DNA of 62,247 nt, filler included, from Sphacelaria rigidula (GCA_964200075.2; 7 parts of 7 records of this genome joined end to end with filler, not necessarily neighbours in it), one strand, 5' to 3'. Counted from the first letter of the whole stretch, positions 2,638 to 61,449 are shown. Notes: generated by a model not told the origin, from the letters alone. Translations and numbers: made by a program.

Positions 2638-2729
2638 ACCTGAGGGGAAAATGACTGCCGAAACGGCAGGTGAGAGACGATCTGAGTACAAAATAGAAGC
2701 GAACACTGAGTGTCGATGATGAGGAGCTG

Positions 2730-25060: not shown

Positions 25061-26413
25061 TAAACCGTTTTCAAATATATTTTTTGTGCTCGAGTGCCCA
25101 GCTGATGGCGGTTACTGGTTACTAAGGTTTGGTTTATGATCGGGTGGGTTGAATATTGCGTGAGAATTCGCAGCTCTTGATTTCAGAACAATTCGAAGCC
25201 CCCCCGTGATCGGCCGAGAAACATTCCCATAACTAGCGCCACAGCAAAGGACGCACGAGATATTCTGGCTGGTCATACTGGTCGGCTGGTGGTGGGGATC
25301 ATCATAATACCAATTATGCCTCTATTGGGTCAGTTTTGTGTTTTGAATCTGGTGGGGAATATATTTTGGACATTTCCCCCGAACCATCCTGTGCGTGTTT
25401 TCATCCGAATGAACCCTTAACTGTCACCAACAGAGTGATTTTTGAGCGCACCTTAGGAGACGGGAGAGCGGGGCTGGGCTGTTCTGGTCATTTATCACTG
25501 GAGTAGTTTTCGAGCGGAACCCCGGCTACTACTGGGTATCCGGAAAAGTGATCATCCTGTGCTGCTTCACATTTTTCGAGGTACCCTTTGCCTACTGCAC
25601 GAGCGACCTGATATATTCAGGCCCTGTACGGCAATTTTTTTCTCGGGCGGACCCTCCGTTACCGTGACCTTATGCCCAAACATTTTGGTCCGAAGTCTCC
25701 ATGCTCATTGTTCGGCGGAGCCTTGGCATTCGCGGCGTCACGTCCACATACGGCGGTCCTGTCTTTCGATATTTGTGGCGAGCGAAGTTTCCCCGACGAT
25801 GCCGCCGAGGCCACCTGTTTGGGTTCTGAATTCCGACGTTCCTGATCATAGGGAGGGTTGACTGTGGTCGGGTTGTCACGAAAGTTCATGGTCCTGAGAT
25901 CCGTCTTCGTCCTCTTTTAGGGTCTTTTTCAGCAGGTCGTGTCCGTACCGCCTGGCTGACCTTTGCTGTCTTGGTCCTGTGATACCATTGTTTTCCGGTG
26001 GACCTTTGAGGTGGAAGGGTTGCGCCCCCATAATTCATGCGAGTATGATGTCCGCATTTTCGGTTCTAGCAAAGCTGCCGCGGTGGCGAATCGTGACTAC
26101 CTTTATTCGGTCCTGCTCTCAACGTATTTCTTCGAGAAAATGTTCGGGACAAGAACCGCAGATCAGGTGCTCGAGTCTTGAGCTCCTAATTTCCTGCGAG
26201 TTGGTCCCATTCGGCCGCCGGTGTTTCGCATGTTCATGCAGATTTTGACGTGCTTCCCAACGAGCCTTTTCATACTCTCACACTTGTGCGGTCAGCAGGT
26301 GCGTCGTCTACGTCGCCGCTCCCGACCTATTTGCCCTTACCCTTACACTCTCTACATCATGATATCTTACTTTCGGACCGCATTATCCCATTCCTACCCC
26401 CCCACCTCCACCA

Positions 26414-26490
26414 CATGCTCCGTCTCGAAAGGGATGCGTGGTCAATGGTCAAATGACTAAGGCAAGCAACAAATGAGTACGCCCCCCCCC
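26414..26490 (+). mobile_element. Short poly-C-associated retroposon end (subfamily B) with TSD
   Basis: CATGCTCCGTCTCGAAAGGGATGCGTGGTCAATGGTCAAATGACTAAGGCAAGCAACAAATGAGTACG(C)9, flanked on both sides by CCCCCCCACCTCCACCA. Confidence 0.85.
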
Positions 26491-26623
26491 ACCTCCACCA
26501 TTGCTGGTTGGACACCCATGAGGCAGTGTGTAAGCCATGGCTGTCTCTGGAAGTGGCGATACCACAGAATAAAGCAAATCATTGGAGGCTATCATCCAAA
26601 TGCAAGATAATCAGTAGGCTTCG

Positions 26624-26723
26624 NNNNNNNNNNNNNNNNNNNNNNNNNNNNNNNNNNNNNNNNNNNNTTAATTAATTAANNNNNNNNNNNNNNNNNNNNN
26701 NNNNNNNNNNNNNNNNNNNNNNN
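26624..26723. other. Artificial contig spacer
   Basis: N44-TTAATTAATTAA-N44. Confidence 0.99.
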
Positions 26724-27199
26724 CGAGTCAACTTATTATACTAAAACCAAGTAATTTCCTGACGAATCATTATTTGTCCTAACCGTGGACTACTCATACT
26801 TTCTGTACCCTCCAAGTTTTTTCGTGAGAATCGCTACACTAGTCTGGCGAAAGTCAGAGTGGCGTTCGAAGACCAGAAGAGTGTGGTGAAATCTACACGT
26901 GGAGCCGATGACAAATCTTTTCCCGGCGTCACGTTATGATTTAGGGCAAAAATCGGCTCTGAATCAGCAAAATGAGCAATTTTTTTGATGTGTTTCGCCC
27001 AAGCGTTAGTTAACGAGACGTCTATATTGTACATGGTACAAGTTTTGACCTTGTTTCGAGTATCATTTTTTTCCCCATGCCGGCGAGGCCTTCAGCGACA
27101 AAACAAACCGTACATGTTCTCAACATGTAGGTGTTATCGCGTCTACAAATGAAGATTCTAGGGTACAGTACTCATTTGATTCCGCGACGAGAAAGAGCA

Positions 27200-28920
27200 G
27201 ATATTTTACTTGATCATGGCAGGTCAGCGGCGGTGTTTGACGAATAGTAAACACGTACGGGACCCTTGACGTAAACTTGCCACCTCCTACCGTATGTACC
27301 ATACTTGTCCACTAAAAAGTCGTACCAGTCATTTTTTAGTCTACGTTCCCTCTGCATCATGTTCCTATTTTCATAAACGAAACATCTTGACTTGACACCA
27401 TGTGCGAAGTCTACTGCACTGAAAATCCCGAAAGCGTCGCAGCTCATGGTTCAAACGGAGACCTAAAATGTGATGTCTTACGGCGGGTGATGAACCACTA
27501 ACGATCCAAAATGTCATCTTCGTGTAAATGGCAACGGATGGTGTGCAAGTACCTCCCTACTGTCGTGGGTAGTTCTACCGATATGAAACTCCTCGACCTC
27601 CAGGTCTGGGTCATCTGGGCTTTTCTCTCATTTTCTAGTGGAATATGTGGAACATGATGGTTCAAAAATAAGCAACACGGCTATTTTGCGAATACAGAGT
27701 TGGGCCGAGATGAACCCACCCTGGCGGCCGCAGGGTTGACGTCTGGACATGAAGCAAAAACAAGGTGAAAGCTGTGCTACTGTAGTGTAGTGACGTCGTG
27801 GCTTGACTGTGCACCGTGTCACGTGTGGTGACCCAACATGCAGGCCTCGTGAGCTGTATTTTTTTCATTGGACACGTGTGACGTATTGGGACACGTGTGA
27901 CGTATTGGGACACGTGTGACGTATTGGGCCACGTGTGGCATGTATTTATTTATGGCGCAACGGAAATGTACAAGAAGCATTACGTACTTGAGACTTGGAA
28001 ACAAACGTACTCGGTTCTTGCAACACGACCGACCGACCGACTGCACTGCTTCCAGACCCACACACCTGCCTTGACGTGTTTTATATAACATGCACGTACC
28101 TCCTTCAGTTGAGTGACCGTCGCCATTTTACCTTGAAAATGGCGATTGAACTGATTCCGTCGGTGTTTTGCCACTTGCAGTGCCTGTCTGTTTCTCCTGA
28201 GGGTGGTGAAATTTTTGAACTGCCTCAACCTCGCGTGTCCGCTTCATGAGCGGCATATCGCAGATGGAACCAATCGTCAAATGCTGTACTGTGGTCACGT
28301 GGAATCGCCGTTTTTTTTACACCGTCGGGGGTATAGTTTGGTTCTAACACACAAGTGTAGTACAACTTTCCACGGTTCGGACGAATCATCGCCGGTTCGA
28401 ATAACCACATCCACGATTTTTCAGGCCTCATTGCTATAAAGAGAGGAAAAAACTCCACCGATGATCAAGAAGACTCCCACGCAACTTTTGCGCCATTCCC
28501 GTGCCTGGACTGCGCGTACGTGGGTTGCAACGCTGAAAACAAAGCCTGAGGGTTGATTCGTACGGTACGAATCAAGTACGCTAAAATCAAGTAATTTCCA
28601 GACGAAGGATTCATTCGTCCGACCCGTGCAACTTTCGCTTCGGCAGTAAAGGGTACATCAGACATGTAACGGGGCAAGCTTTGGGGCAAAAGTAATCGCC
28701 CGGAGAATCATAGAATTTGCACGTGCCGTAGACCATCCGAACGACTTTGTCGTCGCTGTCGTCCGGCAAGGAGGCGGTCGGGTTTGAAAACTTGAGTTCG
28801 CGTTTTTGATGCTTGGAAAATGGCTGTAGGGTGATGTTTTCTCCGTCACGGCTAATAACTGCACCGACGTGCGCTGGCACTTGAAGGCACACGACATTGG
28901 CGTGTGTTGTTATATGGTGC
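27200..28920 (-). pseudogene. Decayed Mutator (MULE)-like transposase
   Basis: EFFPLFIAMRPEKSWMWLFE...TPDGVKKTAIP...WFHL resembles the MULE core (FPxAFA..ExxxSWxWF; D...A...CxWH). Downstream, QPCGRQGGFISAQLCIRKIAV is SWIM-like. Multiple stops and frameshifts. Confidence 0.42.
27867..27946. repeat. 19-bp minisatellite, about 4 units (ATTGGGACACGTGTGACGT)
   Basis: Directly visible tandem; each of the first three units carries CACGTG and TGACGT. Confidence 0.92.
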
Positions 28921-30102
28921 ACTTATCGCATGAGATTCCCGACGCTACCACCGGTCTATAACGCCCCTCTAACACCGCACACCGCCGATTGAAAATCGGT
29001 CCAACAAATGACCAAGAAGAATAGCAAAAATAGTGACTGTGTACTGTCTGCGGAGAGCCTAGCGCATCCAGGTTTTACATTGCAATGCTGATGGAGGCTC
29101 TTCGCCTTACGTTGGAAAGCTTCTTACGAAAGCTTGAAAAATGTTCCTTGAGATGTCGTGGGCTGTCGCTCGAGTAAGGGCAGTAAGTGCCTTACTAAAC
29201 TGTTGGGACTGTGCTTGACGTGCATGTTTCTTGTCTAAATATATACTACCTGTTGTTGTCTATCTGCCAACAACTACTAAAATAGATATCTTCAGGTTTT
29301 ATGTAGTATGACGTTTGACTACTAGAATACCCAGCAATGGTCACTGCCGTGAACGTTATCTCTTGAAGTGCGAGCTGTTTCGGGAATCCTTGCTGCAAGA
29401 ACGACCACGTGCATGTGCACGTGATGACCAGGTGTGCTCTTTTAGTCATGGTCTGTCGTTGTCGGTACGATCGTGTGTTCGGAGTGAACGCATGGGGAAC
29501 ATGGCAGCACTGAACACCGACGACGGAAACAGCGTTCCCCACAACCTCACCATACGGCGCATCAACAACCCTTGAAGTCGGCTAGCCACAACGGAGATGA
29601 TCGTTTTTGACGCATGAATAACTAGCATGCGAACAAACGGCGTAGCTTGTCTTCCCCTCAATGAAGAAACAAGACGTGGTGCTTCGTGGTTTTCGGCAGA
29701 ACGTGACGCTCACGCGTGATGCATACTAGTTCGACTCTGGGCCGCCGGCCTTGATTTCTTGGTCACGATGAAAAGTGCAGTGCAGTGAGCGAGATTAGCC
29801 CCGTGGTCGCTGAAGTAAGAGCTGAAAAGATCTACGCCCGAAAATACAAAGGCTTGGTATGTAATGTTGGTCGGCATCTTCAAACCATCCTTTTTTTCGT
29901 TCGCTGATTTTTTTCATCAGGTTATTTTCCAAGCGAATTCTTTACAGAAGAGCTACACACGTCGATAAGTTGACCAACCTCCGTCCTCCTTGTTCCATTC
30001 ATGTTGCATGTTCTGTTCTGTCGATCAGAGAAGTAAGTGCGCCGGCTGGGGTGGCAGCGGCCTTGTGGCGAGCAGTGAGCCTACTCCAGCGCACGAATAT
30101 AC

Positions 30103-31869
30103 ATGGACTGCACCAGTGAGAGCGGCGATAGTGGTGTCAGTCAGCGTGAGCTGCTCTGCGGCATGGGGGAAGAAATTCTCCTTCTAGTCTCGCAAGCATC
30201 CCCGACACAGCTCCTCACCAACTGGCTCAATCTCTGCGCCGGTGACATCCCCATCTGGTCACTTGTGCCCAATCGAAACGAGTGCTGCACCCTGCGTCGA
30301 CACGGCGAGGAACTGCTGTCCGTGGTCATGGACCGAGCCACCCCGGGACAGTGGGTCAAATGGCTCCAGATTCCCCTCGAACAAGCTCGTCTCGGCGGGA
30401 AAAAAACTCTTGTTGACACATTGATCGCGGCAGGCGCTGACGCAAATCCCGCGATAGGGGATGTCGGAAGCTCCTCCTGTGCAGACAGCACTGGCTTCTT
30501 TTGTGCCCCGATGACTGGAGGTGCAGGTGCAGGTGCAGGTGCAACAACCACCCGCGGCGCCTGCTCCAGTAGCTTTGGTAGTGCCGCATGTCCTGATGGG
30601 GGAGCGGGGAAGAGAACGGGTAGATGTGGAGGCGGTGACGGTGCAAGGTCTCGTGAAACACAGCGTAGTTCCGATTGCACACGGCCTTCTTCATCGTGCT
30701 ATGGCGGTTCAAGCTCTAGTGTCCCACAGCCGAGTCATCCCACGGCTGCGGCAGCATCGTCCGGCTTCCCTTCCACGGGCAAGGAGGTCGCATCTATCCT
30801 TCCTCATCCTTCGGTTGGCTTCGAGGAGATGGGATCTACACCGCCAGCACAGGCAGTGCCTGCGTTTCCGCCACCAAACGCAAATGCGGGCGCTGGCGAT
30901 TACGTCGCCGCGGCCCTCGGAGCCGACGATGATGCTGCCGCGGCTAACAACCTTCCGCTCCCAGAAGCCGCAACCGCAGCAGCGCTGGTCGACGAGAAGC
31001 TCAGCCTCCACCGCGCCGCGATAGCTGGAGACGTGAACAGAATGCGGGAATTGTTGGTGCACGGCAGGGTTGACAAGAACGCCACCGACCTATGGAGCTG
31101 CACCGCGCTGCACCGCGCCGCCGAACAAGACGGAGATGAATCCGCGCGTCTGCTCATTGCGGCGGGGTTGGACGTCGGGGCCCGCGACATGGAGGGGTAC
31201 TCTCCGCTTCATTTCGCGGCGGCTCGCAGCGCAAGCAAATGCATCGTGCACCTGCTGCAGGCGGGTGCGCAGGTCTCTCTCCGGGGTAACAACGGAGACA
31301 CCCCGCTCCATAGTGCCGTCAGGTTCTTGTCCCTGTCCACAGCTAGGTTGTTGCTCCAGTGGGATGCCGACGAAACGGCTCGGAATGAGGATGGACACAC
31401 GCCCGCTGATGTCACGGGAGTATTGCCCGACGGCCGTGACATCGAAGACGCGCCAGATCCGCTCGCGGCGGCCGCCATTATCGCCGAGCTCGAGGCTGCG
31501 CCGGCCTACCGGCGGTTTCGCATCTGGAAGCGGCGGGCATGGCTCGTGATGCTCCGCGCGAGGGCGCAGGCCCGTCTTGTTCAGTTGCAAAAGGCTGCGG
31601 CTGTGCGAGTTGAAGCTGGGACGTGCGCCGTTGTACCAAAGTCCGTCGGCAAAGGCGCCGGCGAGGCGGGTGCATCGGGGGCGGTCGGAAACCCTGCGGG
31701 GGCAAACGGCGGAGTGGTCGAAAAGCAGAGGACAATGCGGTGTGGGATGGCAGGGGGAGCGAGGGAGCGGCGATGGCGACCGGAACAGGATGCGTTGGTT
31801 CGGGCGGTGAAGCGGACGGTGGCGCTGCCTGAGGAGGGGGTCTTCCAGAAAATCGTGTTGTATTTGTGA
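30103..31869 (+). CDS. Ankyrin-repeat protein (588 aa, intronless ORF) of the brown-algal/phaeovirus-like ankyrin family
   Basis: Long GC-rich ATG-to-TGA ORF with four ankyrin repeats (LSLHRAA, TALHRAA, SPLHFAA, TPLHSAV, plus GHTPADV). It has an N-terminal RATPGQWVKWLQIPLEQA...LVDTLIAAGA motif and C-terminal WKRRAWLVMLRAR and EEGVFQKIVLYL motifs typical of Ectocarpus ankyrin proteins. Confidence 0.92.
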   Translation: MDCTSESGDSGVSQRELLCGMGEEILLLVSQASPTQLLTNWLNLCAGDIPIWSLVPNRNECCTLRRHGEELLSVVMDRATPGQWVKWLQIPLEQARLGGKKTLVDTLIAAGADANPAIGDVGSSSCADSTGFFCAPMTGGAGAGAGATTTRGACSSSFGSAACPDGGAGKRTGRCGGGDGARSRETQRSSDCTRPSSSCYGGSSSSVPQPSHPTAAAASSGFPSTGKEVASILPHPSVGFEEMGSTPPAQAVPAFPPPNANAGAGDYVAAALGADDDAAAANNLPLPEAATAAALVDEKLSLHRAAIAGDVNRMRELLVHGRVDKNATDLWSCTALHRAAEQDGDESARLLIAAGLDVGARDMEGYSPLHFAAARSASKCIVHLLQAGAQVSLRGNNGDTPLHSAVRFLSLSTARLLLQWDADETARNEDGHTPADVTGVLPDGRDIEDAPDPLAAAAIIAELEAAPAYRRFRIWKRRAWLVMLRARAQARLVQLQKAAAVRVEAGTCAVVPKSVGKGAGEAGASGAVGNPAGANGGVVEKQRTMRCGMAGGARERRWRPEQDALVRAVKRTVALPEEGVFQKIVLYL

Positions 31870-32570
31870 CGGGACAGGACGGCGGATGGTGAGTTGAGGG
31901 CTGCGGTGCGTTACTTACTGTTCCTGGCTGGCGTTTTTTCATCGAGTATGGGATATCAAGACTCATACCTGTGCCTAGCGGTAGTGGTGGCGTACCAGGA
32001 GACGGCAGCAGACTACTGAGGTGGAGACATACGAGACGGCTTACAGTGTCGTATCAACGGTGCTCATTCCTCTCATCCCCTTCTTGTGCCACAGCCTCGT
32101 AACAGTATCCTCTCCTCTTGGCTGGTGTTATCCTCATGCATGCAACACGCATGGAGCATGGAGTTGGGGGTGCTCATCAATCTTCTTCGAATACATTCAA
32201 CAGTCCCCTGACTCCTGACCCCCGTATTGTTGCTGCTGTCATAATTGCAGGTATTAAGGATGCCAACTCGGAGAGGGCTACCCGAGGTGGTAGCATTTCA
32301 TAGTCTCTATAGAAGACTTGAGGAAGACGGCTTGATGACAGTCGAGACGTGAATTGACGGTTTAAACGATAGTCAGATAGTCAAGGGGGTAATGTGTCAT
32401 GCTCTCGTCGCTATTTTATACTTGATGGTCATGGCGTTGGTTTATTAATTTGAACGGAGGGTGTGCATGTTTTGCTCGTCGTTCAACATTGAAATGGTGA
32501 TTTGGCAGAAATAGCGACGAGGGTATGCGTATGATAGAACGACTCTCGAGTCATCCGTGTAGGGGTGAAC

Positions 32571-32624
32571 GGGGGGGTGTACTCATGATCATGCTTGCCA
32601 TAGTCATCAGACCATTGACCTCGT
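32571..32624 (-). mobile_element. Short poly-C-associated retroposon end (subfamily A) with TSD
   Basis: (G)7TGTACTCATGATCATGCTTGCCATAGTCATCAGACCATTGACCTCG, with TGAACGGGGGGG on both sides (32566 and 32625). Confidence 0.85.
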
Positions 32625-35529
32625 TGAACGGGGGGGGGGGGACGGTATATACACTCGTTTTTGTGTTGTTTCATTTTGTACCCTCCCTCTTTGTGTGAGT
32701 TAATGTGTGTGTTTCGTGACGTCTTGTCTTTTTACGTAACATCAAAGTCGAAAGGGTCATGGTTCTAATGAAATTGAAGAATGTGTCTTTGAGAGTAATC
32801 AAATGGTGTTTCGGATGAACGGGGAGCGGGGGTGGGGGGTTGGGAGGGGGTTGGAAACGCACGAGTGCATTTACTGTTCTGTGAAGTATACTTGAGCGCG
32901 CCTCGGCCACACTTTCAAAGCCCGGTGGTGTTCCGCTATTTTCTGTTGATTGCTTCTTCTTTTTTTTTTCACCTACTGTACATGTGTTGTACACGGACCT
33001 TGTACGAATACAGTAGGTGACGATATTATGAAGATATTAACAGTAGTGATGATGGTGGGTATGTTTATGGAATGGTATGGTGTGGTTTGGTTTATTTGTT
33101 TTATTTGTTTTGTCTGTCTGAGCGATTTTTTCGAAGTTGCTGAAAAAAAATAGATCGCTCGCTGTTCACCGCTACCACGTTTTGCATGTCGTATTGTGTG
33201 TATATTGTGCGTGTGCTAGGGAAGGTGTTGACCTCGTCGGGCGGTGGGGAAAACAAGGCGGTGGGCAGAACCACGTGTACAGAAAAAGACGAGGGAGTTT
33301 TGACCGGAACTCTTGACCATGTAGAGCAGGAACAGGTTTCCAACATTTTTTTCCCTTCCTTTGAGTGGAACACTACACTATAATAATAACAGTCGCAAGC
33401 GTCGTGAGGTGCTTATTACCGTACGTACGTCTCTGCTTGCTTTTTTTTCGTTTCCAATAATCAAAAATAGTAGTAGGCCTCCACTGTACTGTACGTCGTC
33501 CCCCATCCGTGTTCGATGCGGGGCGCAATGTAGAGGGCTTCCACGTGATTCCGTGCATGCCTCGGAAGGCAACAACGTACGCGATGTGGGTTGGGCCCGT
33601 TGACTGCCGAGCTGGTGTCGTCTGGGTCTTGAATCATTTTTCAGGTAAAAATGATAGACAATTCAACAAATGACCTATCCTGGCGGTTGAAAGTTAGAAA
33701 CTTACTTGTTGTCAGCGTTGCTGTAGCTGCTGTTGCGGACGCTGCTGCAAATTAACTGAGCTATATCGTTTTTGTACAGTGTACTTGGCGATGTGACGAG
33801 TGATGAACAAGAAAAAAATAAGAAAAAAGTGACGTTTCCGAGCCTCTCCTTTCATGTCTTGCCGTTTTGTTTGTACTTTTGTTTGCTTTGTGTTGGGCGA
33901 CTGGGTGGTACGCCTGGGTGAACAGAACCGGGTGGGGGATGACTGGGGGCGGGTGGCGAGGAAGTGCCCGATCGTGGATGTGGGTGGGGTATATGGTTTA
34001 TATAGCCGAGATGATTCGGGGGGTTGGATCTGTAGAAGACAGGAACGCGATGTACCATGGGGCAGCGCGTGTTCGATGTGGCAAAAGAAGTAGGAAGCGT
34101 GAAACCGTAGTGGAGCTTGATTCCACAACAGTAGCTGAGGGTGCGTTGGGGTATGCAGAACACGGGCGTATCGATGCGTGCAAGCAGTGTGCATGGATCG
34201 TATACCCTCCACATGTATTAGTAGTCGTATCGCGTAGTGCCCCTTTACATGGGCTATTGAAGAAAAATAGTGAATCCCGTGGTGCGGGTTTGCTGTTTCC
34301 AACGTATTGGGTCGAATCATGTGTTCTGTTGTTCGAGTTTTGACAGGTGACTGACTGCGGGGAAGATGAGAGGGAGGGGATCAATCACAGCATTTTTTTT
34401 CTGTACAAATGTGGATCGTGGATGCCAACAATCAACAATCCAAACGAATGGGAGGATCAGGATCCCTGCTTTGAATCTCTCGATGTGCGGAGGGCATACG
34501 CGTTTACAGTTGCGGACTGCCTTTGCATGAGGGGTATGTTGGAACGGGGTGAGCGCCTCGAGGTCTCTCAGGTGTGCAGGTGGCTCTCATGAGTAACTCG
34601 ATCATGGTGACAATATCGCCTTTTTGGAGCATGTCCTCGGTCTGGCGCTGTCGAGTGAGGTTTCAGTGAGATCCTCGTTGACTTGTACCTCCGGCGCTTT
34701 GGATCACCGCGAAGCAATTCAGCCCACGCTGTTCACTTTGAACCCGTGTACGCCATCGCGCCACTTACTTTTGTGAAATAGACCTGTGTATGCCGTTGCT
34801 CCTACATACGGCGATGAAGATCCCGAAGTCCTTGTGGATGTTCGTCGTGAGGAGCACCCAGATGCTGAGTGTGCGTGCTGTCATCTCACACTAGGAATTC
34901 AGCAGCATGAAATACGTGTCCTGTGCCGTTTTCAGGGGTGAAACTTACTGCTGCACGTACTGTACCTACCGTACGTACTGTACTGCTCGTTCGTGAGACG
35001 AAGGCAATGCTCCCAAATCTTCGGTTCTGAACCTGCTCGCTATTATACGTGGTCATTTTGTATTCCTTGACACATATCCTCATTTGACAACATATCCATC
35101 CACCATTCCATGATCTCATTAACGTACCTACGCGCCGAGTTATGACGAGAAATTGTGTTCCCGTTTTCGTGCTGTTGTTCCTCCTGAGGCACGCACACAA
35201 TGGTACGTGCTACAGAGTACAATGCGGGTGCGCTGCGTGTCAGGTGTGGTCAAAACAACCGAGAACGGCTTGAGTCCGAACAGAAACTAATGATCGAATT
35301 ACTCTTCGCTTCAGTTTGTCTTGTATACGGTACGGCCTTTTGTACACCTGGGGTTACCCGTTCTCGACAGTTTAGTGAGTTCCGTGAGCCTTTCAAACCT
35401 GTACCCGAGAGTGCCCAAAAAACATCCTCCGAGACCCTACGTTTCCCCCCCCCCTCCCCATCCCCCCCCCTCGGGCGGTCAAACAAATGAGTACGCTCCC
35501 CCCCATCCCCCCCCCTCGGGTGCCTAGAC

Positions 35530-35629
35530 NNNNNNNNNNNNNNNNNNNNNNNNNNNNNNNNNNNNNNNNNNNNTTAATTAATTAANNNNNNNNNNNNNNN
35601 NNNNNNNNNNNNNNNNNNNNNNNNNNNNN
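35530..35629. other. Artificial contig spacer
   Basis: N44-TTAATTAATTAA-N44. Confidence 0.99.
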
Positions 35630-35714
35630 GTTGGGTGGGGGTTGGGGTTGCTCGCGTACTCATTATCATGCATGCTCTAGGTATCAGACCGTGGGCCGCG
35701 CGTCCGGTCGAGGA

Positions 35715-35770
35715 GGGGGGGGGTGTACTCATGATCATGCTTGCCATAGTCATCAGACCATTGACCTCGC
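35715..35770 (-). mobile_element. Short poly-C-associated retroposon end (subfamily A) with TSD
   Basis: Same core as 32571-32624, with GGAGGGGGGGG on both sides. A diverged copy lies at about 35652-35700. Confidence 0.8.
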
Positions 35771-36196
35771 GGAGGGGGGGGGGGGTTCAGAGCGATACAA
35801 CAACAACAAAAAGAACTGTAGTATCAATCTGTGCGTGGTCCACACTACTGCTACACATCCACGAACGCAGACCTTATAGTCAATAACGGAGCACTGACAC
35901 AGTACGCAGTACCCGCGATCGCCACCGTTCTGAGTGGCACCATATCTGTTGTTTGATGTGCACTGGGGAAATCGCTGAGCGTATTCCGTAGTAGGTAAAG
36001 TTCTCACCGGGGCGATATACCGTCAGCGATCGATTTGAGTAAATTTTGTAGTACCACTAGACTGTGCGCTTCAACGCCGCAGTGCCGCCGGCCCCGGCCC
36101 CGGTGGTCTAGTCAGCATGACAGGAGGTTGTGGATTCTGGATCATGACGAATGCCTTGTTTCTAGTAAAATATCTTATCCATCATTGAAAACGTGA

Positions 36197-36425
36197 GAAA
36201 ATTTCTACGATAGCCCCCCCCCCCCCAACCAGCCCAAAAGTGTCACGGAACAAATAATTATACAGCGCCTGATGTTTGGCTTCAGGCTGCATGAAGCGAG
36301 AGCGAACCCAAGCGTGGGAATTCTCAGCTGGTCGTTGTGCTCGGCTTTTTCCATTTCGATTTACGTGAAACTTTTGCCTGGCCAAACCAGGCACTTTTGG
36401 GGGGGGGGCTATCGTAGAAAGTGTC
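36197..36425. mobile_element. MITE family M4, copy 1, 4-bp TSD GTGA
   Basis: TIR GAAAATTTCTACGATAGCCCCCCCC / GGGGGGGGCTATCGTAGAAAGTGTC. GTGA occurs at 36193-36196 and 36426-36429. Reverse complement of 47856-48108. Confidence 0.9.
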
Positions 36426-36873
36426 GTGAGTTCGCGAGTAGCGGAGAATCTACGAGAGTCGATGCGGCGCGGGAGTGGTCATCATCCAATCAATCCTCGG
36501 TAACACAATGTCGGGCATGTGCCGGGGGAGAGACGGGTTGATCCGTCATAACCATGGACTCGTTCCGAGGAAAGAGAAGGGGTTGTGAAAACTTTGACGA
36601 CAAAAGATGAAGACATACCTGTGGCGAAAGAATAAGCGGGCGCTTTCTCCAGTCTTCTGCGAATGAATTGAGTGTTGTGTGGCATATTTTTGCTTTCTCT
36701 TCATTTTTTAATATTATTTTAAATATTTTCTCCTCTTGGTTTTTGCTCCTCATATTCATTCCCTCTCATTTTTGTTCTCCTCTCATCATCCCCTCCCCTC
36801 CCCATTTTTTTGGTTTCTTCTTGCATTTTTTATTTTCTTTCTTTTATTTTGTGCACGAAAAATATTTTCGCAG

Positions 36874-36936
36874 GGGCGTGTGCTCGGCGACGCGTTGTTG
36901 ACGCGCAGTCCTCGACACGAGGCAAAAAGTAAACCG
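36874..36936 (+). CDS. IBA57: Exon of IBA57/YgfZ/CAF17-like folate-binding Fe-S assembly factor
   Basis: TTTTCGCAG| GRVLGDALLTRSPRHEAKSKP |GTGAGT, a 63-bp phase 0-0 exon carrying the GRVxxD motif. It splices in frame to the exon at 37785. Confidence 0.75.
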
Positions 36937-37023
36937 GTGAGTGATGGATGAATATGGCCGCTATGTGTCACTTTTTCAGTTGCTTAGCCCCCGGCGCGGT
37001 CCGTGCTCGAGCGTGGAATGTGT

Positions 37024-37125
37024 GGGGGGGGGTGTACTCATGATCATGCATGCCATAGTCATGAGACCATTGACCTCGCATCCCTACAATGCCGGGGCTG
37101 AGCACGCCGGGTTCTCGCCGGACCA
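37024..37125 (-). mobile_element. Short poly-C-associated retroposon end (subfamily A, longer copy) in the IBA57 intron
   Basis: Core extended by CATCCCTACAATGCCGGGGCTGAGCACGCCGGGTTCTCGCCGGACCA, flanked by TGGAATGTG(T)GGGG on both sides (37014 and 37126). Confidence 0.85.
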
Positions 37126-37289
37126 TGGAATGTGGGGGTGTGTTAATTGTTCTTGATCTTGCTTGTTCTCGCGTGACCAGAATGTAGCACCCGCATCGGA
37201 TATTCAGCTTATTGCTCTAATTCGACTGGTTGACATTATTGTCAGGGCCTGATTGCACAGCAATAGATCTTTCGTAAGATACCCCATTT

Positions 37290-51131: not shown

Positions 51132-51204
51132 GCCGGCTTAGCTCAGTGGTAGTAGCGGCACCTTCGTAAGGTGTAGGTCGAGAGTTCAATCCTCTCAGTC
51201 GGCT
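51132..51204 (+). tRNA. tRNA-Thr: tRNA-Thr(CGT)
   Basis: Acceptor GCCGGCT/AGTCGGC, anticodon arm GCACC-TTCGTAA-GGTGT, T arm GAGAG-TTCAATC-CTCTC, with TTTT just downstream. Confidence 0.93.
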
Positions 51205-51738
51205 TGCTATTTTGCCACCGCGGGGGGGGTGGTTTTAATTGATCAACCAAGTACTGTTTTTTTTCAACTTGAGTTGAGGCCGACCCAACGACCCAACCGA
51301 TGACGTGTGCTGGCTGGTAAAGGGTTGACCCTTTGCTTTGATTGTGAACATGAGGTCATCTGTTGCATCCGCATCTCATTAATTTCACTTGAAGGACGAG
51401 TTGGTGGTCAGATTACCTACCCTCCTGCTCAAAGGGTCAAGAGATACAAACCCTTGAGACCTGGTGTGAGAGATCTTATCTTCGATGCACCTTCCCCTTT
51501 TTTTCATAACTTTTCCCCGAAAAATGGATTCCCTTTTCCTGACTTGTCCCTAGCGTCTTACACAAATGAATAACGAGGAGATATTCGAGCGCCACTATGA
51601 TTGTCGGAGATATGGGTTATCAGTCTGGAATTGACCTTTTGCATGACTTGGTGAAAAAATCTGCTCTCACACTTTTTTTAGTAGATCCCCCCCCCCCCCG
51701 TAAAATTCGGACACTGGAAAAATTAACCCACTACTCGT

Positions 51739-52116
51739 CATAGCTCGGAAATGGTTTGTCTAACCACTAACCAGTTGAAAGGTTACGCTTAGCGCACTCA
51801 TTAACCAGTAAAATGATACATGATGGTTTGGTCATCGAGCAGCGCAGCCGCGAGCCAAAAAGCCCCCCACCCGGCAAAGGGGGCCTCGCTGGAGGCGCCG
51901 TGCCGGGGAACACGTTTTTACGCGATTTGACTTCGTTAGAGCTGAAGTATACGTTGAATTTGGGCCAATTTTCAATGGCCGTATGTAGCATACGTAGCCG
52001 GTAATGATGAATATTGGTTTGAAACCATTATCCAAAGTCTTCATATTATAACCATCACCATTATTACCATAATAATAATAATAGCCTGTTATAACTGGTA
52101 CCATTTCCGAGCTCTA
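51739..52116. mobile_element. hAT-type MITE family M8 with 8-bp TSD
   Basis: CATAGCTCGGAAATGGT / ACCATTTCCGAGCTCTA. CTACTCGT is duplicated at 51731-51738 and 52117-52124. Confidence 0.92.
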
Positions 52117-52153
52117 CTACTCGTAGTTATTCCCCGAAGTCAGGGTGCCATTT

Positions 52154-52238
52154 CCCCCCCCCATGCTCCGTCTTGAAAGGGATGCGTGGTCAATGGTCAA
52201 ACGACTAAGGCAAGCAACAAATGAGTACGTCCCCCCCC
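52154..52238 (+). mobile_element. Short poly-C-associated retroposon end (subfamily B)
   Basis: (C)9ATGCTCCGTCTTGAAAGGGATGCGTGGTCAATGGTCAAACGACTAAGGCAAGCAACAAATGAGTACGT(C)7, with C-runs on both sides. Confidence 0.85.
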
Positions 52239-52739
52239 TCCAAATATTCAGAAATTCTCCCTTTTTCATCAGGTTGAAAACGAGTTTAAACTGTCACAGC
52301 TGAATCTCATCGACGCACACGAACTTGGCCGTGATCCGTACATTCCTTGTGAAGACTCGAGGATGGAGATATTATCGCGCGCTGGATGCTTTGCGTACGT
52401 GGCGAGTAAACCCCAAGGACTTGGAGATATCCCGATCTTCATACTTGAACGGAATCACCATAGTCGGCGGATGCCGTTGTTATTTGGTGTAAATATTACA
52501 CGGAGAAAATATCAAAATATCGATACCCTCACTTTCACCTGACTTGTTCTCTATCGAGATATGGCGCGCATGGGGTACTGAACTAAATGCAATTTATTGC
52601 ACGGCATGCAAGGGCGCACAAAAAATATATATTTTGGACCCACACCCCTTTTTTTACATTTGGGACCGATTAGGGGGTGGGTGGGGGGTGGTATCTGCCG
52701 TTTACATACTAAATCCTATACAACTCAAGGACAAATTAC

Positions 52740-53270
52740 TTGGTTTTAGGCTGGAACCTTGGTCAGTGACTGCTGACCGGGCATATTCCCATCACGGCAA
52801 CCATTTGTATAGAGCACAGAGCCAAGCAGAAGCAGCAAGAACACACAAACAGCCAGCGGTCTACGCCGCGCTGTGTGGGTGAATATCTACCGCCTGGTGC
52901 GTTGCCTCATGATGCCCCATGTGCAATCTATTCATGAAACCTTGGAGACAATAGACAACGTCGCCGGGGCCGAAGTGACTCAAGTGTGGCTTGGCCTGAC
53001 TAGAGTTCAGCACCCGAACCAGCTTGGATTGAAAAATGCGTCGAGATTGGGCGAGAACGAAAAATTGAAACCGTCGAAAACGTAGTAGATTTCTTCTAGC
53101 GGCTTCACATCTATAAGTAGCAGCGGTCGGTGGCGTAGTAAAAAGTGGATGTGGGTCGAGACTGGTTAAGTTAGGGAAGTCGAAACGAGGTAGGGCAAGG
53201 TAGGGGGACGGTTGCGACGAACCCCAAACAAACTCATGTTCCGTCCCTGACCGCAGCGACCACTGCAACG
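52740..53270 (-). mobile_element. Decayed Ty3/gypsy RT-RNase H region
   Basis: EFVWGSSQ...LTSLDP...RVLNSSQAK...VVYCLQGF resembles the gypsy pattern FxW..Q..F..LK..LTS / SRxLxxxExxY / AVVxALxxF. Confidence 0.45.
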
Positions 53271-53341
53271 GCCGCCCAACCTAGTTGGTAGCTGAGGTGG
53301 GGTATGTAGCCGGAGGATCTGCGTGATCATTGTCATGGGCT

Positions 53342-53441
53342 NNNNNNNNNNNNNNNNNNNNNNNNNNNNNNNNNNNNNNNNNNNNTTAATTAATTAANNN
53401 NNNNNNNNNNNNNNNNNNNNNNNNNNNNNNNNNNNNNNNNN
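53342..53441. other. Artificial contig spacer
   Basis: N44-TTAATTAATTAA-N44. Confidence 0.99.
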
Positions 53442-53596
53442 AAAAACAAATCGGTAACCTGGTTGCCTAGCTTACGCAGTGAGTGGCGTGTTTTACAGCG
53501 TCATCGCCAACCGACGCCAACCTCATAGGGAGTCCGTCCCTACAAAGACGGGACAAAGCACGCCGGGTTCTCGCCGGATCAGGTTTATGAAACGGA

Positions 53597-53637
53597 GGGG
53601 GTGTACTCATGATCTTGCATGCATGAGACCATTGACC
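53597..53637 (-). mobile_element. Short poly-C-associated retroposon end (subfamily A) with TSD
   Basis: GGGGGTGTACTCATGATCTTGCATGCATGAGACCATTGACC, with TATGAAACGG on both sides (53586 and 53638). A separate piece from further 5' in the family lies at 53539-53580. Confidence 0.8.
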
Positions 53638-55657
53638 TATGAAACGGGGGACGGGGGGGAGGGGACACGGGGATGGTAACCTTCAAATTTCTCATGTGCA
53701 TCACTCCCAAGATTCTTCCCCATTTTTTTTTAATCGTAACTATCGGACGGCGACGAGTGAGAAGATGACACAGGTATCGTTGTTTTCGCCTTGATGTCAG
53801 CTACATGCCCTCCAATTTTTAGCGCAATCGAACGAGAGGTCGGGTACCTTGTTTATTGTACCACACCGCCACCGACGGTTACCGCCATCAGGTCGCTTTT
53901 GGTGTCCCAGGATAGTGTGACTTGGTGAAAGTGCCTGGACGAACGATCAGAGTGCGCAGTGCACCCCAGGCTGGCTGAAAGAATGCGGTGAACCTGAATT
54001 TTTTGCTGCGGTTTGTTTTTTTTGCGCCGGGGACAGTTGGGATCGAGTAGTAGTGGGACTAGCCTGTATCTTGGCGCAGCGTACGTTTCATCTGGCGGCG
54101 TTGGCTACGTGCAGTGCTCCGATATATCTCCCTCTGACCTGTACCTGTATGGGGGCTACTTTCCCTCAAGTATGCATGATCCGTGTCGTTTGCCCGTAGA
54201 AGGAACGATCAACACAAATCTTACAGGACACCTTGCCGTTGTGGAGAAACAAATCTCTGGGGCAGCCTACAGTCATCACACAGCAAATCACTGCGTGCCT
54301 TCTAGTCTGGGTAAGACAAGATAGACTCACGTTGCTGGCAGCAATTCAACTCTCTAACTCGATACTTTCCCTAGCGTATAGCAAGCTGGTACTAGCCCAG
54401 TGTGGGAGGAGGTTCATCAGTGAGCAAGTTGAGGGGGAAAGATGATGCACCTCGGGAAAGGACCACATCATAAACGACAACGTGGCATTATTTCCTCGGA
54501 GCTTTGGGGTGAAGGTCTGAGATTTACTTTTGAAGGTCTCATAAATATATCTGTCCGCAGGTGAAAAACCCAAACACCGCCTCAAAGCCTTCATAGCACA
54601 GTTCGAATATGCACCATCAGGTGAGGGTGCTTTGCGCAACTTATTTTCGTCAAATCAACAATCAAGTGCTAGGAAACCGAACTGTCACATTTCAAGTCAC
54701 AAGGCGTACTATTACAGCACAAGGTATCTTCAACAGAAACATAGGGGTTGCTCTGGACGATGACAGAATATTTCGATGAAATCGACGACCTGCGCGAGTG
54801 CTGGGTATAATGCTCCGTTGGTGAAGCGCAGGGTAAATGGCGGATTGAGAAGATTTGATGCCTTGAGACGACGGAGTGCGGGGCGGGGTGGTCTACGGTA
54901 GGGTGAGAATGAGGGTTAAAAACACCAGAACATTACGCTGTTTTTTTACAATGACGTACATGGGCGCTACTCCCCTTCGCCTCCGCCCTCCTTCTGTCTA
55001 CCCAAAAGGGGCAGTCCCACATGCGGGGACACCTGCCGCCTCGACACACGCAATCGCTCTCGTCGCTCCCACCTATTGCCCACGCGTCCTTGTAAGTTGC
55101 CTCCAGCTCTTGCTGCTCCAGTTTCCTCGCGGCATCTGCCGTTACATGAATTACACCCGTTGCAGTGGGTGGCATTGTTTCAGGTGATTCACCCAGACAG
55201 CGAACGAGGCAGCCTGCCCATGCACCCTGACAAAAGCTCGCCATTCCAAAGGTTCGCAGGATTCGGACTTGACTCCTTGAACGCCCGGGTCCGTAATTGG
55301 ATGCTTAATTGGATGCTGAAAGGACAATCTTCAGGGGGATCCGGAAAAGTCGTTTTGGTGAAGAAAAAAAACGCCACCGACATAAAAAAAGGCTGTTGCC
55401 ACGCATATGCCGCGCGTCACAGTTTCATTACACAAGTCACGATCAGCAGTGCTTCGCCGTTTTCGAGCGTCAGAAAATTCATCGCGCCAACACTAGTGCA
55501 TGAATGTGGTCAACACAAGTAACAGCTGTTGCTGCACAGCTGAACGACGCAGCGCATTAAGCGCAGGGTGTACGAGCTGTAGGCGGTGCGCGAGGGTGTG
55601 GTTGGGTGATGTTTCGATTTTGTCCCTGAGCTATGTGAAAGACCCTCCCTCATCAAC

Positions 55658-55758
55658 CCCTGGTCCGGGGAGGACACGGCGTGCTCCGTCCCGGCTATGT
55701 AGGGATGCGAGCTCAAGCTCACATTACTCCAGCATGCAAGATCATGAGTACACCCCCC
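55658..55758 (+). mobile_element. Diverged longer copy of the poly-C-associated retroposon end (subfamily A)
   Basis: TGGTCCGGGGAGGACACGGCGTGCTCCGTCCCGGCTATGTAGGGATGCGAG...GCATGCAAGATCATGAGTACACCCCCC aligns with the reverse complement of 37024-37125. Confidence 0.75.
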
Positions 55759-61369: not shown

Positions 61370-61449
61370 GGTCGAGTGGCCGAGTGGTCTAAGGCGCTAG
61401 TTTAAGGCACTAGTTCGAAAGAGCGTGGGTTCGAATCCCACCTCGATCA
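61370..61449 (+). tRNA. tRNA-Leu: tRNA-Leu(AAG)
   Basis: Acceptor GGTCGAG/CTCGATC plus discriminator A, D arm GCC-GAGTGGTCTAA-GGC, anticodon arm CTAGT-TTAAGGC-ACTAG, long variable arm, T arm GTGGG-TTCGAAT-CCCAC, and a T6 terminator. Confidence 0.96.

What the first reader, a model, noticed from the sequence alone, without database searches (positions are those of the whole stretch)
26397..55758. Tail-less retroposon family that inserts specifically into poly-C/poly-G tracts
Seen: about 12 copies across five unrelated contigs (26414, 32571, 35475, 35652, 35715, 37024, 39040, 39220, 44536, 52154, 53597, 55658). They share a fixed 3' end, ATGAGTAC(A/G), running straight into a C-run, with variable 5' extent (about 35-110 bp) and no poly(A). 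Five copies have TSDs of about 10-17 bp that include the C/G-run: CCCCCCCACCTCCACCA, TGAACGGGGGGG, GGAGGGGGGGG, TGGAATGTG(T)GGGG and TATGAAACGG. There are two subfamilies; their cores translate GCVVNGQTTKASNK* (B) and GCEVNGLMTMA (A). Established: 5' truncation plus variable-length TSDs is the signature of target-primed reverse transcription, which normally pairs an A-rich or microsatellite tail with a matching target. Inference: these are extreme 3' ends (ORF2 C-terminus with almost no UTR) of a LINE whose endonuclease or priming is specific for G/C homopolymers. The FADDFVG-type LINE at 2010, 37290 and 44672 is a candidate driver. Each insertion duplicates the run, which could explain the abundance of poly-C/G tracts and why contigs break at them.
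Basis: partly seen in the sequence, partly recalled or inferred. Interest (0 to 1): 0.75.

Follow-up and report, generated by a model that had tools for sequence, protein, structure and literature searches.

The report
LINE tail copies in poly-C tracts
The short repeats are the chopped-off tail ends of a jumping gene (a LINE retrotransposon) in what is probably a brown alga; it lands in runs of C and copies the run each time, a target choice I could not find described.

Summary
There are twelve copies of 20-93 bp in five of the window's seven pieces. They share the 3' end ATGAGTAC(A/G), and 11 of 12 run straight into C5-C24. Five have target-site duplications (TSDs) that begin with the C-run.

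I found the parent. Three contigs from public collections (L001-L003) carry a ~5 kb element with one long ORF (1382-1426 aa where complete) holding an APE endonuclease, a reverse transcriptase and a CCHC motif. The ORF ends ...CVVNGQ(T/M)TKASNK, its TGA stop lies 5 nt before the element's last base, and C8-C13 follows. It contains FADDFVG, and the window's LINE fragments match it.

Contigs of four sequencing runs show hundreds of other copies with the same 3' end followed by a C-run.

A distant sister lineage (36-40% aa identity) keeps the same 3' nucleotide box. It carries its own (TAT)n tail, and its TSDs lie after the tail. Insertion into C-runs is therefore a lineage-specific change.

Not settled:
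- whether specificity comes from the endonuclease or from pairing of the G-run primer with read-through C's;
- whether subfamily A is a separate non-autonomous element;
- the RT clade.

No empty site was seen. I found no published description, but Repbase, Dfam and paper supplements were out of reach.

The parts
26414..26481 (+). Subfamily B copy, 68 nt. TSD CCCCCCCACCTCCACCA at 26397-26413 and 26484-26500.
   Evidence: 97% identical to the L002 3' end
32578..32624 (-). Subfamily A copy, 47 nt. TSD CCCCCCCGTTCA at 32566-32577 and 32625-32636.
35476..35495 (+). Subfamily B copy of only 20 nt (apparently with an internal skip). TSD CCCCATCCCCCCCCCTCGGG at 35456-35475 and 35501-35520.
35655..35711 (-). 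Older, diverged copy, ~57 nt. The 3' flank is C-rich but holds no run. It lies just downstream of the 35724 copy.
35724..35770 (-). Subfamily A copy, 47 nt, essentially identical to the 32578 copy over the aligned ~47 nt. Flanking repeat CCCCCCCCCTCC at 35712-35723 and 35771-35782 (almost all C).
   Evidence: not separable from a shared run
37033..37125 (-). Subfamily A copy, 93 nt. TSD is a C-run plus ACA(CA)TTCCA at 37014-37032 and 37126-37138.
   Evidence: pile-up and loose ends
39041..39107 (+). Subfamily B copy, ~67 nt, ending ATGAGTAAG and followed by C24. No TSD recognisable beyond C-rich sequence.
39221..39283 (+). Diverged B copy, 63 nt, lying between C9 (next to a 10-N gap) and C17.
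44536..44589 (+). Subfamily B copy, at least 54 nt, cut by the start of the piece and followed by C10-T-C11.
52163..52229 (+). Subfamily B copy, 67 nt. Flanking repeat TCCCCCCCC at 52153-52161 and 52230-52238 (run only).
53602..53637 (-). Subfamily A copy, 36 nt, with an internal 7-nt gap. TSD CCGTTTCATA at 53586-53595 and 53638-53647, preceded by C5 on both sides.
55661..55752 (+). Subfamily A copy, 92 nt, followed by C6-A-C5-A-C4. No clear TSD.
53537..53583 (-). Fragment matching only the 5' part of subfamily A (TGATCCGGCGAGAACCCGGCGTGCT...). It diverges after TGTAGGGA.
2033..2638 (-). Internal fragment of the parent LINE (RT FADD motif to thumb; P0001 aa 983-1189), without a 3' end.
   Evidence: 80% nt identity to L002
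37294..37500 (-). Internal fragment of the parent LINE (P0001 aa 974-1042).
44655..44757 (-). Internal fragment of the parent LINE (P0001 aa 976-1009).

Best explanation
The repeats are very short 3'-terminal copies (20-93 nt) of an APE-type non-LTR retrotransposon (LINE) of about 5 kb, in what is probably a brown alga.

The element:
- It has one long ORF holding an APE endonuclease, a reverse transcriptase and a C-terminal CCHC domain.
- The ORF runs to within 5 nt of the element's end. The last ~50 nt therefore serve both as C-terminal codons and, as I infer, as the cis-acting 3' box that the RT recognises.

How it inserts (target-primed reverse transcription):
- The bottom strand is nicked at the edge of a G-run, which is W|C(n) on the element strand.
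- The G-run 3'-OH primes cDNA synthesis, and the first templated base is the R of ...GUAC(R).
- The top strand is cut inside the run or up to about 14 nt past it, so the whole C-run is duplicated in a TSD of 9 to ~23 bp.
- Reverse transcription or 5' joining usually stops within about 100 nt.
- Each insertion turns one C/G run into two.

Shown: the LINE parentage, the APE and RT domains, the fixed 3' end, C-run-containing TSDs, no LTR or TIR, and a high copy number.

Inferred: the position of the nick, and the source of the specificity. My split is about 55% pairing of the G-run primer with C's carried by read-through RNA from the donor's own downstream run (as L1 pairs poly(A) with a T-tract), and about 35% intrinsic specificity of the endonuclease or of DNA binding.
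For: Family and ends:
- 10 exact 3' ends against 0.77 expected; 12 copies in all.
- 11 of 12 are followed by C5-C24.
- 5 of 8 testable copies have TSDs of 9-20 nt exact that begin with the run; the maximum in 56 mismatched flank pairs is 8 nt.
- The base before the upstream run is A or T in 8 of 8 copies (chance 0.04).

Parent element:
- L001, L002 and L003 hold ORFs of at least 1253, 1426 and 1382 aa. They end ...CVVNGQ(T/M)TKASNK, then TGA, 5 nt and C8/C10/C13.
- Pfam finds RVT_1 at 1e-30 and Exo_endo_phos at 7e-13.
- The CCHC residues C1309, C1311, H1320 and C1325 are invariant in 14 relatives.
- There are no terminal or inverted repeats.
- The window's FADDFVG fragments match the element.

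Genome-wide, from contigs of four runs:
- Summed word depth in the bin holding the 37033 copy is 1.7M, 3.7M, 0.85M and 0.11M, against about 35, 70 and 12 in single-copy bins of X1, X2 and X4. The tool warns that this is not a copy number.
- 792, 930, 353 and 75 contigs leave the reference just beyond the 3' end. Their consensus is a G-run (a C-run on the element strand) followed by no consensus.
- 173, 197, 165 and 46 contigs leave at the 5' end, with a C-rich run upstream.

Comparison with a sister lineage (G002):
- It is 36-40% aa identical.
- It keeps ...TGCGTGGTCAATGG...CATGAGTA at the nucleotide level.
- It has a (TAT)n tail, its TSDs lie after the tail, and those TSDs hold no tail-like part.
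- The C-run-in-TSD habit is therefore specific to the algal lineage.
Against: - No empty (pre-insertion) site was seen. The short-read contigs stop inside the repeat, so none bridges a copy.
- No TSD could be read for the long copies, because their 5' ends lie off or at the contig ends.
- Only 12 copies were read base by base. 3 of the 8 tested show nothing beyond C-rich flanks.
- The 5' ends recur (47 twice, 67/68 three times, 92/93 twice), and all 12 copies are shorter than 110 nt, against 11 of 30 in the sister lineage (Fisher p = 1.2e-4). Simple random truncation does not predict this.
- In subfamily A the conserved TGA is out of frame, and no A-type parent was found.
- Upstream and downstream run lengths show no consistent difference (8 pairs: 4 longer downstream, 3 shorter, 1 equal). 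This neither supports nor excludes C's contributed by the element.
- No conserved RNA fold was found: -4.6 kcal/mol and 0 compensatory pairs.
Confidence: 0.8

Rival explanations
1. This is the reader's exact version: a truly tail-less RNA with endonuclease-determined specificity. The RNA ends at ...GUAC(R). The APE endonuclease, or another DNA-binding part of the protein, recognises G/C homopolymers and nicks at their edge. Priming needs no base pairing, as in R2.
For: - The base before the upstream run is A or T in 8 of 8 copies.
- The sister lineage primes without tail-target complementarity, so this clade's RT does not need pairing.
- Downstream runs are not systematically longer than upstream runs.
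- For the known microsatellite-targeting APE LINEs, specific cleavage by the endonuclease is the usual explanation (review PMC3812793, passages read).
Against: - Nothing here measures cleavage.
- Every donor copy is necessarily followed by a C-run, so read-through RNA would carry C's.
- Homopolymer lengths drift, so the run-length comparison is weak.
- The 3' flank of L001 (C8-G-CACCTCCAAC) resembles the TSD of the 26414 copy (C-run plus ACCTCCACCA). This hints at pairing beyond the run, but it is a single case.
Confidence: 0.35
2. The short copies, subfamily A above all, are not truncated LINEs. They are non-autonomous retroposons of about 50-105 nt with their own 5' ends, mobilised in trans because they keep the LINE's 3' box.
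For: - 5' ends recur in the window.
- 173-197 contigs per run share the 5' boundary at 37125. They go on for ~10 similar bases and then a C-rich run.
- Subfamily A has a 1-nt insertion that puts the conserved TGA out of frame, and the 37033 copy has an in-frame TAG.
- No A-type ORF was found.
- All 12 copies are shorter than 110 nt, against 11 of 30 in the sister lineage.
- The main text of the Ectocarpus TE paper mentions very short, abundant non-autonomous LINE-dependent families (PMC12477816, passages read).
Against: - B copies are 96-97% identical to the LINE's own end.
- Lengths still range from 20 to 93 nt.
- No promoter or head was looked for or seen.
- Recurrent ends could come from preferred stops or from microhomology joining.
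- The collections searched hold little algal DNA, so the missing A-type parent means little.
Confidence: 0.35
3. The C/G runs are artefacts of sequencing or assembly (for example poly-G read ends), and the pattern is not biological.
For: - Pieces of the window tend to start at runs: 4 of 7 lie within 55 nt of one (p = 1e-4).
- Independent short-read contigs end at the runs (table 8).
Against: - The runs sit inside TSDs, with unique sequence on both sides.
- The same 3' end plus C-run is found in three other assemblies and in contigs of four runs from two studies.
Confidence: 0.02
4. The conserved end belongs to a DNA transposon, an LTR element or a Penelope-like element read on the other strand.
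For: Two A copies contain CTGATGA, which resembles a hammerhead ribozyme core.
Against: - The end is continuous with an APE-RT ORF.
- No LTR or TIR is present.
- Rfam finds only two tRNA genes in the window.
- CTGATGA is not conserved among the copies.
Confidence: 0.01

Closest known systems
L1 (LINE-1): poly(A) tail and T-tract priming at TTTT/AA sites
   Same: Both are APE-type LINEs that insert by TPRT. Both show 5' truncation and variable TSDs that begin with the homopolymer. The homopolymer at the 3' junction matches the primer strand, and each insertion seeds a mononucleotide tract (review PMC3812793, passages read). L1 ORF2p is the best solved-structure match to the RT (E = 3e-22).
   Different: The homopolymer here is C/G, which polyadenylation cannot add, so any C's must be templated from the donor's flank. 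There is essentially no 3' UTR. The conserved 3' box suggests stringent rather than relaxed template choice. Clade membership was not tested.
Microsatellite-targeting APE LINEs: Waldo (ACAY), Mino (AC), Kibi (TC), Koshi (TTC), Dong (TAA)
   Same: They are APE-type elements that insert into a simple repeat and end without poly(A). The target repeat flanks both sides of the insertion (list in PMC3812793).
   Different: The listed targets are di- to tetranucleotide repeats. A C/G mononucleotide run is not on that 2013 list. As I recall, most are assigned to the R1 clade and Dong to R4. No relationship to them was tested here.
Sister lineage found here in G002 (loci L005, L009, L010, L030-L059); RTE-like habit
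   Same: The ORF is 36-40% identical and has the same APE-RT-CCHC order. It has the same 3' nucleotide box with the TGA stop inside ...CATGAGTA. It shows 5' truncation and TSDs. A near-zero 3' UTR with a short AT-rich trinucleotide tail is what I recall as typical of RTE-class elements (Malik and Eickbush 1998; recalled, not read).
   Different: There the tail (TAT)n belongs to the element, the TSD lies after it, and the TSD has no tail-like part. Copy lengths run from 23 to at least 1515 nt. In the alga the run is part of the TSD, and all 12 copies are shorter than 110 nt.
Brown-algal LINEs and their short non-autonomous partners (RTE-X, RTE, CRE, LINE/Unknown; RTEX-N1_Ec32) in Ectocarpus
   Same: The best named relatives of the ORF are Ectocarpus proteins at 66% and 53% identity. 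That paper reports abundant 5'-truncated LINEs, and non-autonomous families that share the LINE 3' end (PMC12477816, passages read).
   Different: Its main text says nothing about C/G-run targets or tails. Its family notes are in supplements that I could not open. I could not tell which of its families, if any, this one is.
Stringent-type LINE/SINE pairs (for example UnaL2, with a conserved 3' end and a TGTAA repeat tail)
   Same: A conserved 3'-terminal sequence is shared between the autonomous element and short copies, with a repeat at the very end (PMC3747384, passages read).
   Different: Here the box overlaps coding sequence. No conserved stem-loop was detected. The terminal repeat is part of the target.

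Membership tests
APE-type non-LTR retrotransposon (LINE) | Reverse transcriptase domain | tested here: met
   PF00078 at E = 1.1e-30, aa 807-1056 of P0001. L1 ORF2p and R2 are the top solved-structure matches.
APE-type non-LTR retrotransposon (LINE) | APE (Exo_endo_phos) endonuclease N-terminal to the RT | tested here: met
   PF03372 at E = 6.7e-13, aa 235-461.
APE-type non-LTR retrotransposon (LINE) | No LTRs or TIRs | tested here: met
   No terminal direct or inverted repeats in L002 or L003. The only repeat is a 62-nt tandem repeat beyond the 5' side of L003.
APE-type non-LTR retrotransposon (LINE) | Fixed 3' end, variable 5' end, TSDs of variable length | tested here: met
   genome-wide loose ends.
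RTE / RTE-X clade | RT-domain phylogeny with clade references | not testable with these tools
   No Repbase or Dfam reference sequences were available. The atlas look-up gave only generic names.
RTE / RTE-X clade | Very short 3' UTR with an AT-rich trinucleotide tail (feature recalled from memory) | tested here: inconclusive
   The 3' UTR is 5 nt. The tail is (TAT)n in the sister lineage but a C-run in the alga. The ORF of ~1400 aa with a CCHC domain is larger than I recall for RTE.
Sequence-specific (microsatellite-targeting) LINE | Copies lie in one kind of target sequence, and that sequence flanks both sides | tested here: met
   11 of 12 copies abut C5 or longer. The run lies in both TSD copies in the 5 copies with a proven TSD. 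In 353-930 contigs per run (75 in the small run X5), the consensus beyond the 3' end is a run.
Sequence-specific (microsatellite-targeting) LINE | Empty target sites show an uninterrupted single run | not testable with these tools
   No contig bridges a copy, and no whole genome is held for this window.
L1-like relaxed, poly(A)-dependent LINE | Poly(A) tail | tested here: not met
   No copy has an A-tail.
SINE | Head derived from a pol III gene, with an internal promoter | not tested
   Rfam at gathering thresholds finds nothing at the copies. No dedicated A-box or B-box search was made.

The most novel reading that the evidence does not exclude
A brown-algal LINE lineage gave up the element-borne (TAT)n tail of its relatives. 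It now uses genomic C/G homopolymers as both landing site and tail: the G-run primer pairs with C's read through from the donor's own duplicated run. Because every one of its roughly 10^4-10^5 ultra-short insertions turns one run into two, the element makes its own targets. That would make it a main reason why the genome is strewn with poly(C/G) tracts that can form G-quadruplexes or i-motifs and that break assemblies.
Probability: 0.35. Interest if true: 0.75.

Novelty: new variant of a known kind. Interest (0 to 1): 0.6.

Why it matters
- **A natural test of priming.** It would extend the known repertoire of LINE targets to a C/G mononucleotide tract. It also offers a natural experiment on how TPRT priming is chosen: two lineages share the same 3' recognition box, one with its own AT-rich tail and no target match, the other with the homopolymer inside the TSD.
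- **A source of homopolymer tracts.** In this window 18 of the 48 C/G runs of 7 nt or more flank copies. The family therefore contributes to tracts that are mutable and structure-forming, and at which both this assembly's pieces and independent short-read contigs end.
- **Annotation.** Copies of 20-93 bp occur at roughly one per 5 kb and would escape most repeat annotation.

Tried and rejected
- **Whole genome:** none is held for this window, so no genome-wide census or target logo was possible.
- **Earlier findings of the scan:** four look-ups returned nothing.
- **Rfam:** only two tRNA genes were found, and nothing at the copies.
- **RNA structure:** the consensus fold of ten 3' ends is weak (-4.6 kcal/mol) with 0 compensatory pairs, so no structured element is claimed.
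- **Collection scans with the 3' end:** viral contigs gave 0 hits. Prokaryote genome contigs gave one contig, found twice, and its record holds no further copy. A protein-based scan of viral contigs gave 0 confirmed relatives.
- **Empty sites and polymorphism:** Read laying could not show them because contigs stop inside the repeat. The B copies at 39098-39328 were skipped by the tool as repeats.
- **TSD of the long copies:** an apparent CCTTATCA match in L002 was dropped once the L003/L002 homology was seen to extend about 190 nt further 5'.
- **Clade assignment:** the protein atlas gave only generic names.
- **TSD statistics:** my first two scores were badly designed for C-rich TSDs and were replaced.
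- **Hammerhead idea:** dropped, because CTGATGA is not conserved among the copies.
- **Literature:** searches for a C/G-homopolymer-specific or C-tailed LINE found nothing relevant. The RTEX search and the Saccharina paper gave only family names.

Full report
**What the window is**

The window is seven equal pieces of 8806-8808 bp joined by N44-TTAATTAATTAA-N44 spacers, with one extra 10-N gap at 39202-39211. No whole genome is held for it. The organism is probably a brown alga:
- The best named relatives of the LINE protein described below are Ectocarpus proteins (66% and 53% identity) and an Undaria fragment.
- The public runs that hold the window are labelled as an alga-associated metagenome and a coded organism.

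**Checking the observation**

- ATGAGTACR occurs 10 times against 0.77 expected (0 of 100 shuffles reach 10).
- With two degenerate ends there are 12 copies, all in pieces 3-7.
- They fall into subfamily B (26414, 35476, ~39041, 39221, 44536, 52163), subfamily A (32578, 35724, 37033, 53602, 55661) and one older copy (35655).
- Eleven of 12 are followed within 2 nt by C5-C24. None has an A-tail.
- The 5' extents are 20, 36, 47, 47, >=54, ~57, 63, 67, 67, 68, 92 and 93 nt.

For TSDs I could test 8 copies. I left out four: one is cut by a piece start, one lies next to an N gap, one has an ambiguous 5' flank and one has no run. Five of the 8 share an exact 9-20 nt string with at least 3 non-C letters between the two flanks. 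In 56 mismatched flank pairs the longest such string is 8 nt.

In all five, the duplicated string starts with the C-run that abuts the element's 3' end, and the same run precedes the unique part upstream. The sixth candidate (35724, CCCCCCCCCTCC) cannot be told from a shared run.

**The parent element**

A gapped pattern made from the two conserved blocks found two metagenome contigs (L001, L002) and one contig filed under a bacterial MAG (L003). In all three the subfamily B sequence is the end of a long ORF:
- The ORFs are 1426 aa in L002 (P0001), 1382 aa in L003 and at least 1253 aa in L001, where the ORF runs off the contig.
- P0001 ends ...GAPSRKRCVVNGQTTKASNK. TGA lies 5 nt before the last base, and C8, C10 or C13 follows, then unrelated sequence.
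- Pfam finds an APE-type endonuclease (aa 235-461) and an RT (aa 807-1056).
- A CCHC motif is invariant in an alignment of 14 relatives.
- There are no LTRs or TIRs.
- P0001 contains FADDFVG. The window's three internal LINE fragments match L002 at 79-84% nt identity, and the B copies match its end at 90-97%.

**A conserved 3' box and a sister lineage**

Relatives down to about 35% identity still end with [GR][CR]V[VA]NG followed by 7-9 residues.

A protein-pattern scan of the prokaryote genome collection hit a 16-Mb record with megabase contigs (G002). It carries many copies of a LINE that is 36-40% identical to P0001. Its 3' end is ...TGCGTGGTCAATGGCGTAAGCGCTACGGCAGCAACATGAGTA, found 41 times.

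- The blocks TGCG(T/A)GGTCAATGG and CATGAGTA, the second of which holds the TGA stop, are kept at the nucleotide level.
- In the four lineages aligned (algal subfamilies B and A, G002 and L006), the third codon positions of C-V-V-N do not differ at all.
- I read this as a constraint on the nucleic acid, that is, a cis-acting 3' box that overlaps the coding end. This is an inference. No conserved fold was detected.

In G002 the box is followed by a short (TAT)n-like tail. The TSDs (8-29 nt; loci L055, L034, L057, L046, L031) lie after the tail and contain nothing tail-like. Copy lengths run from 23 to at least 1515 nt.

The algal lineage differs in two ways. Its homopolymer is part of the target duplication. 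All 12 of its copies are shorter than 110 nt, against 11 of 30 in G002 (Fisher p = 1.2e-4).

**Evidence beyond the window**

I then laid contigs of four runs on piece 5.

| Measure | X1 | X2 | X4 | X5 |
|---|---|---|---|---|
| Summed word depth, bin with the 37033 copy | 1.7M | 3.7M | 0.85M | 0.11M |
| Summed word depth, neighbouring single-copy bins | ~35 | ~70 | ~12 | not comparable |
| Contigs leaving the reference just beyond the 3' end (place 37024) | 792 | 930 | 353 | 75 |
| Contigs leaving at the copy's 5' end (37125) | 173 | 197 | 165 | 46 |

- The tool warns that depth is not a copy number. I take it only as very many copies, roughly 10^4-10^5. That agrees with 12 copies in 61.7 kb.
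- Beyond the 3' end the consensus is a G-run (a C-run on the element strand) and then no consensus. Further groups of contigs leave at 37025-37028.
- At the 5' end, the contigs go on for about 10 similar bases and then a C-rich run.
- The fixed 3' end followed by a C-run of variable length, and a C-rich upstream flank, therefore hold genome-wide for subfamily A.
- No contig bridges a copy, so no empty site or presence/absence polymorphism could be seen. The B copies were skipped by the tool as repeats.

**Mechanism**

*Shown:*
- an APE-RT LINE;
- a fixed 3' end;
- TSDs of variable length that begin with the C-run.

*Inferred:*
- The bottom strand is nicked at the end of the G-run. The base before the upstream run is A or T in 8 of 8 copies, with a chance of 0.04.
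- The G-run primes cDNA synthesis starting at the terminal R.
- The top strand is cut inside the run or up to about 14 nt past it.

*Not settled:* why it lands in C-runs. Two models give the same product.
- Every donor copy is followed by a C-run, so read-through RNA would carry C's that can pair with a G-run primer. This is the L1 poly(A)/T-tract logic with another base.
- Alternatively, the endonuclease itself recognises the homopolymer. The sister lineage shows that this clade's RT can prime without pairing.

Run lengths upstream and downstream show no consistent difference: of 8 pairs, 4 are longer downstream, 3 are shorter and 1 is equal. Homopolymers drift, so this decides nothing. One hint for pairing is that L001's 3' flank (C8-G-CACCTCCAAC) resembles the TSD of the 26414 copy, but that is a single case.

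The recurrent 5' ends, the out-of-frame stop in subfamily A and the missing A-type parent leave open that A is a separate non-autonomous element of about 100 nt.

**Poly-C/G tracts and assembly breaks**

- The window has 48 C/G runs of at least 7 nt, against about 5 expected from base composition.
- 18 of them are the flanking runs of family copies. The family thus accounts for part of the excess, not all of it. Other repeats carry their own internal runs (see the things noticed in passing).
- Four of the seven pieces start within 55 nt of a run (p = 1e-4).
- The independent short-read contigs also end at runs or inside the copies (table 8).

**Literature**

- I read passages of the Ectocarpus TE paper (PMC12477816). 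It reports RTE-X, RTE, CRE and unclassified LINEs, frequent 5' truncation and very short non-autonomous families.
- The Saccharina genome paper (PMC4421812; passages) only names LINE families.
- A 2013 review (PMC3812793; passages) lists the microsatellite-targeting APE LINEs: ACAY, AC, TC, TTC and TAA. It lists no mononucleotide C/G target.
- PMC3747384 (passages) gives the stringent versus relaxed framework and examples of non-A tails.
- Four full-text searches for a C/G-homopolymer-specific or C-tailed LINE found nothing relevant.
- Repbase and Dfam could not be searched, so the family may already be recorded there.

**Verdict**

It is an ordinary kind of element (an APE-type LINE with its truncated or non-autonomous tails) with an unusual target that I could not find described, and with an extreme bias towards tiny copies. 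I rate it a new variant of a known kind.

Noticed in passing
window 36214-36226 (+), 36399-36408 (-), 48084-48092 (-): Another repeat family has the form GACACTTTCTACGATAG-C(9-13)-...AAAAGTGTC, a small foldback with an internal C-run. In one search, 59 contigs in X1 and 65 in X2 join position 36425 to 37024-37030. At other loci, therefore, an A copy plus a C-run sits directly 5' of GACACTTTC. This is either a composite repeat or repeated insertion next to this family.
   Followed up: partly
window 7393-7401 (-) and 17067-17081 (-): Two copies of a further repeat have a C-run inside conserved sequence on both sides (...GGCTGG(G/A)TGT(GTT)-Cn-...AACTCGAATTTTCGATCTTGGG). Not all runs come from the LINE family.
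   Followed up: no
window 2033-2638, 37294-37500, 44655-44757 (all on the - strand): The three internal LINE fragments all begin at nearly the same point of the ORF (P0001 aa 974-983, just before FADD) and end at different points. This is the reverse of 5' truncation. The 37500 fragment starts right after a C-rich run (37508-37514).
   Followed up: no
L001 3' flank versus window 26482-26506: The flank after the C-run of the long copy in L001 (G-CACCTCCAAC-TCTGCTG) resembles the TSD and flank of the 26414 copy (ACCTCCACCA-TTGCTG). The BLAST match runs 25 nt past the element's end. This is either chance in C-rich sequence or pairing of read-through RNA with a similar target.
   Followed up: partly
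G002 (loci L005, L007, L009-L016, L018-L059): A 16-Mb record filed as a bacterial MAG, with contigs up to 2.8 Mb, holds 41 LINE 3' ends and many APE-RT ORFs. At least part of it is eukaryotic DNA. L006, L008 and L017 are similar cases in other records filed as archaeal or bacterial MAGs.
   Followed up: partly
L003 5109-5259 (+ strand of the locus; upstream of the element's 5' region): There are two and a half copies of a 62-nt tandem repeat at or beyond the 5' end of the long element. They could be 5' UTR monomers or a flanking minisatellite.
   Followed up: no
window 35476-35495: The 20-nt copy reads CGGTCAA-ACAAATGAGTACG. It looks as if the RT or the template skipped from GGTCAA to the last 13 nt, and it still has a 20-nt TSD.
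   Followed up: no
window 30079-31869 (+): A 596-aa open frame with ankyrin repeats (Pfam E = 1e-17) lies in a stretch of 62% G+C, much above the window's ~48%. It is probably a host exon or gene.
   Followed up: partly
window 51132-51204 and 61370-61449 (+): Two tRNA genes were found by Rfam (57-58 bits).
   Followed up: no
whole window: T-runs of at least 7 nt (43) and A-runs (17) are also far above the 2-4 expected from composition. Homopolymer excess is therefore not limited to C/G.
   Followed up: no
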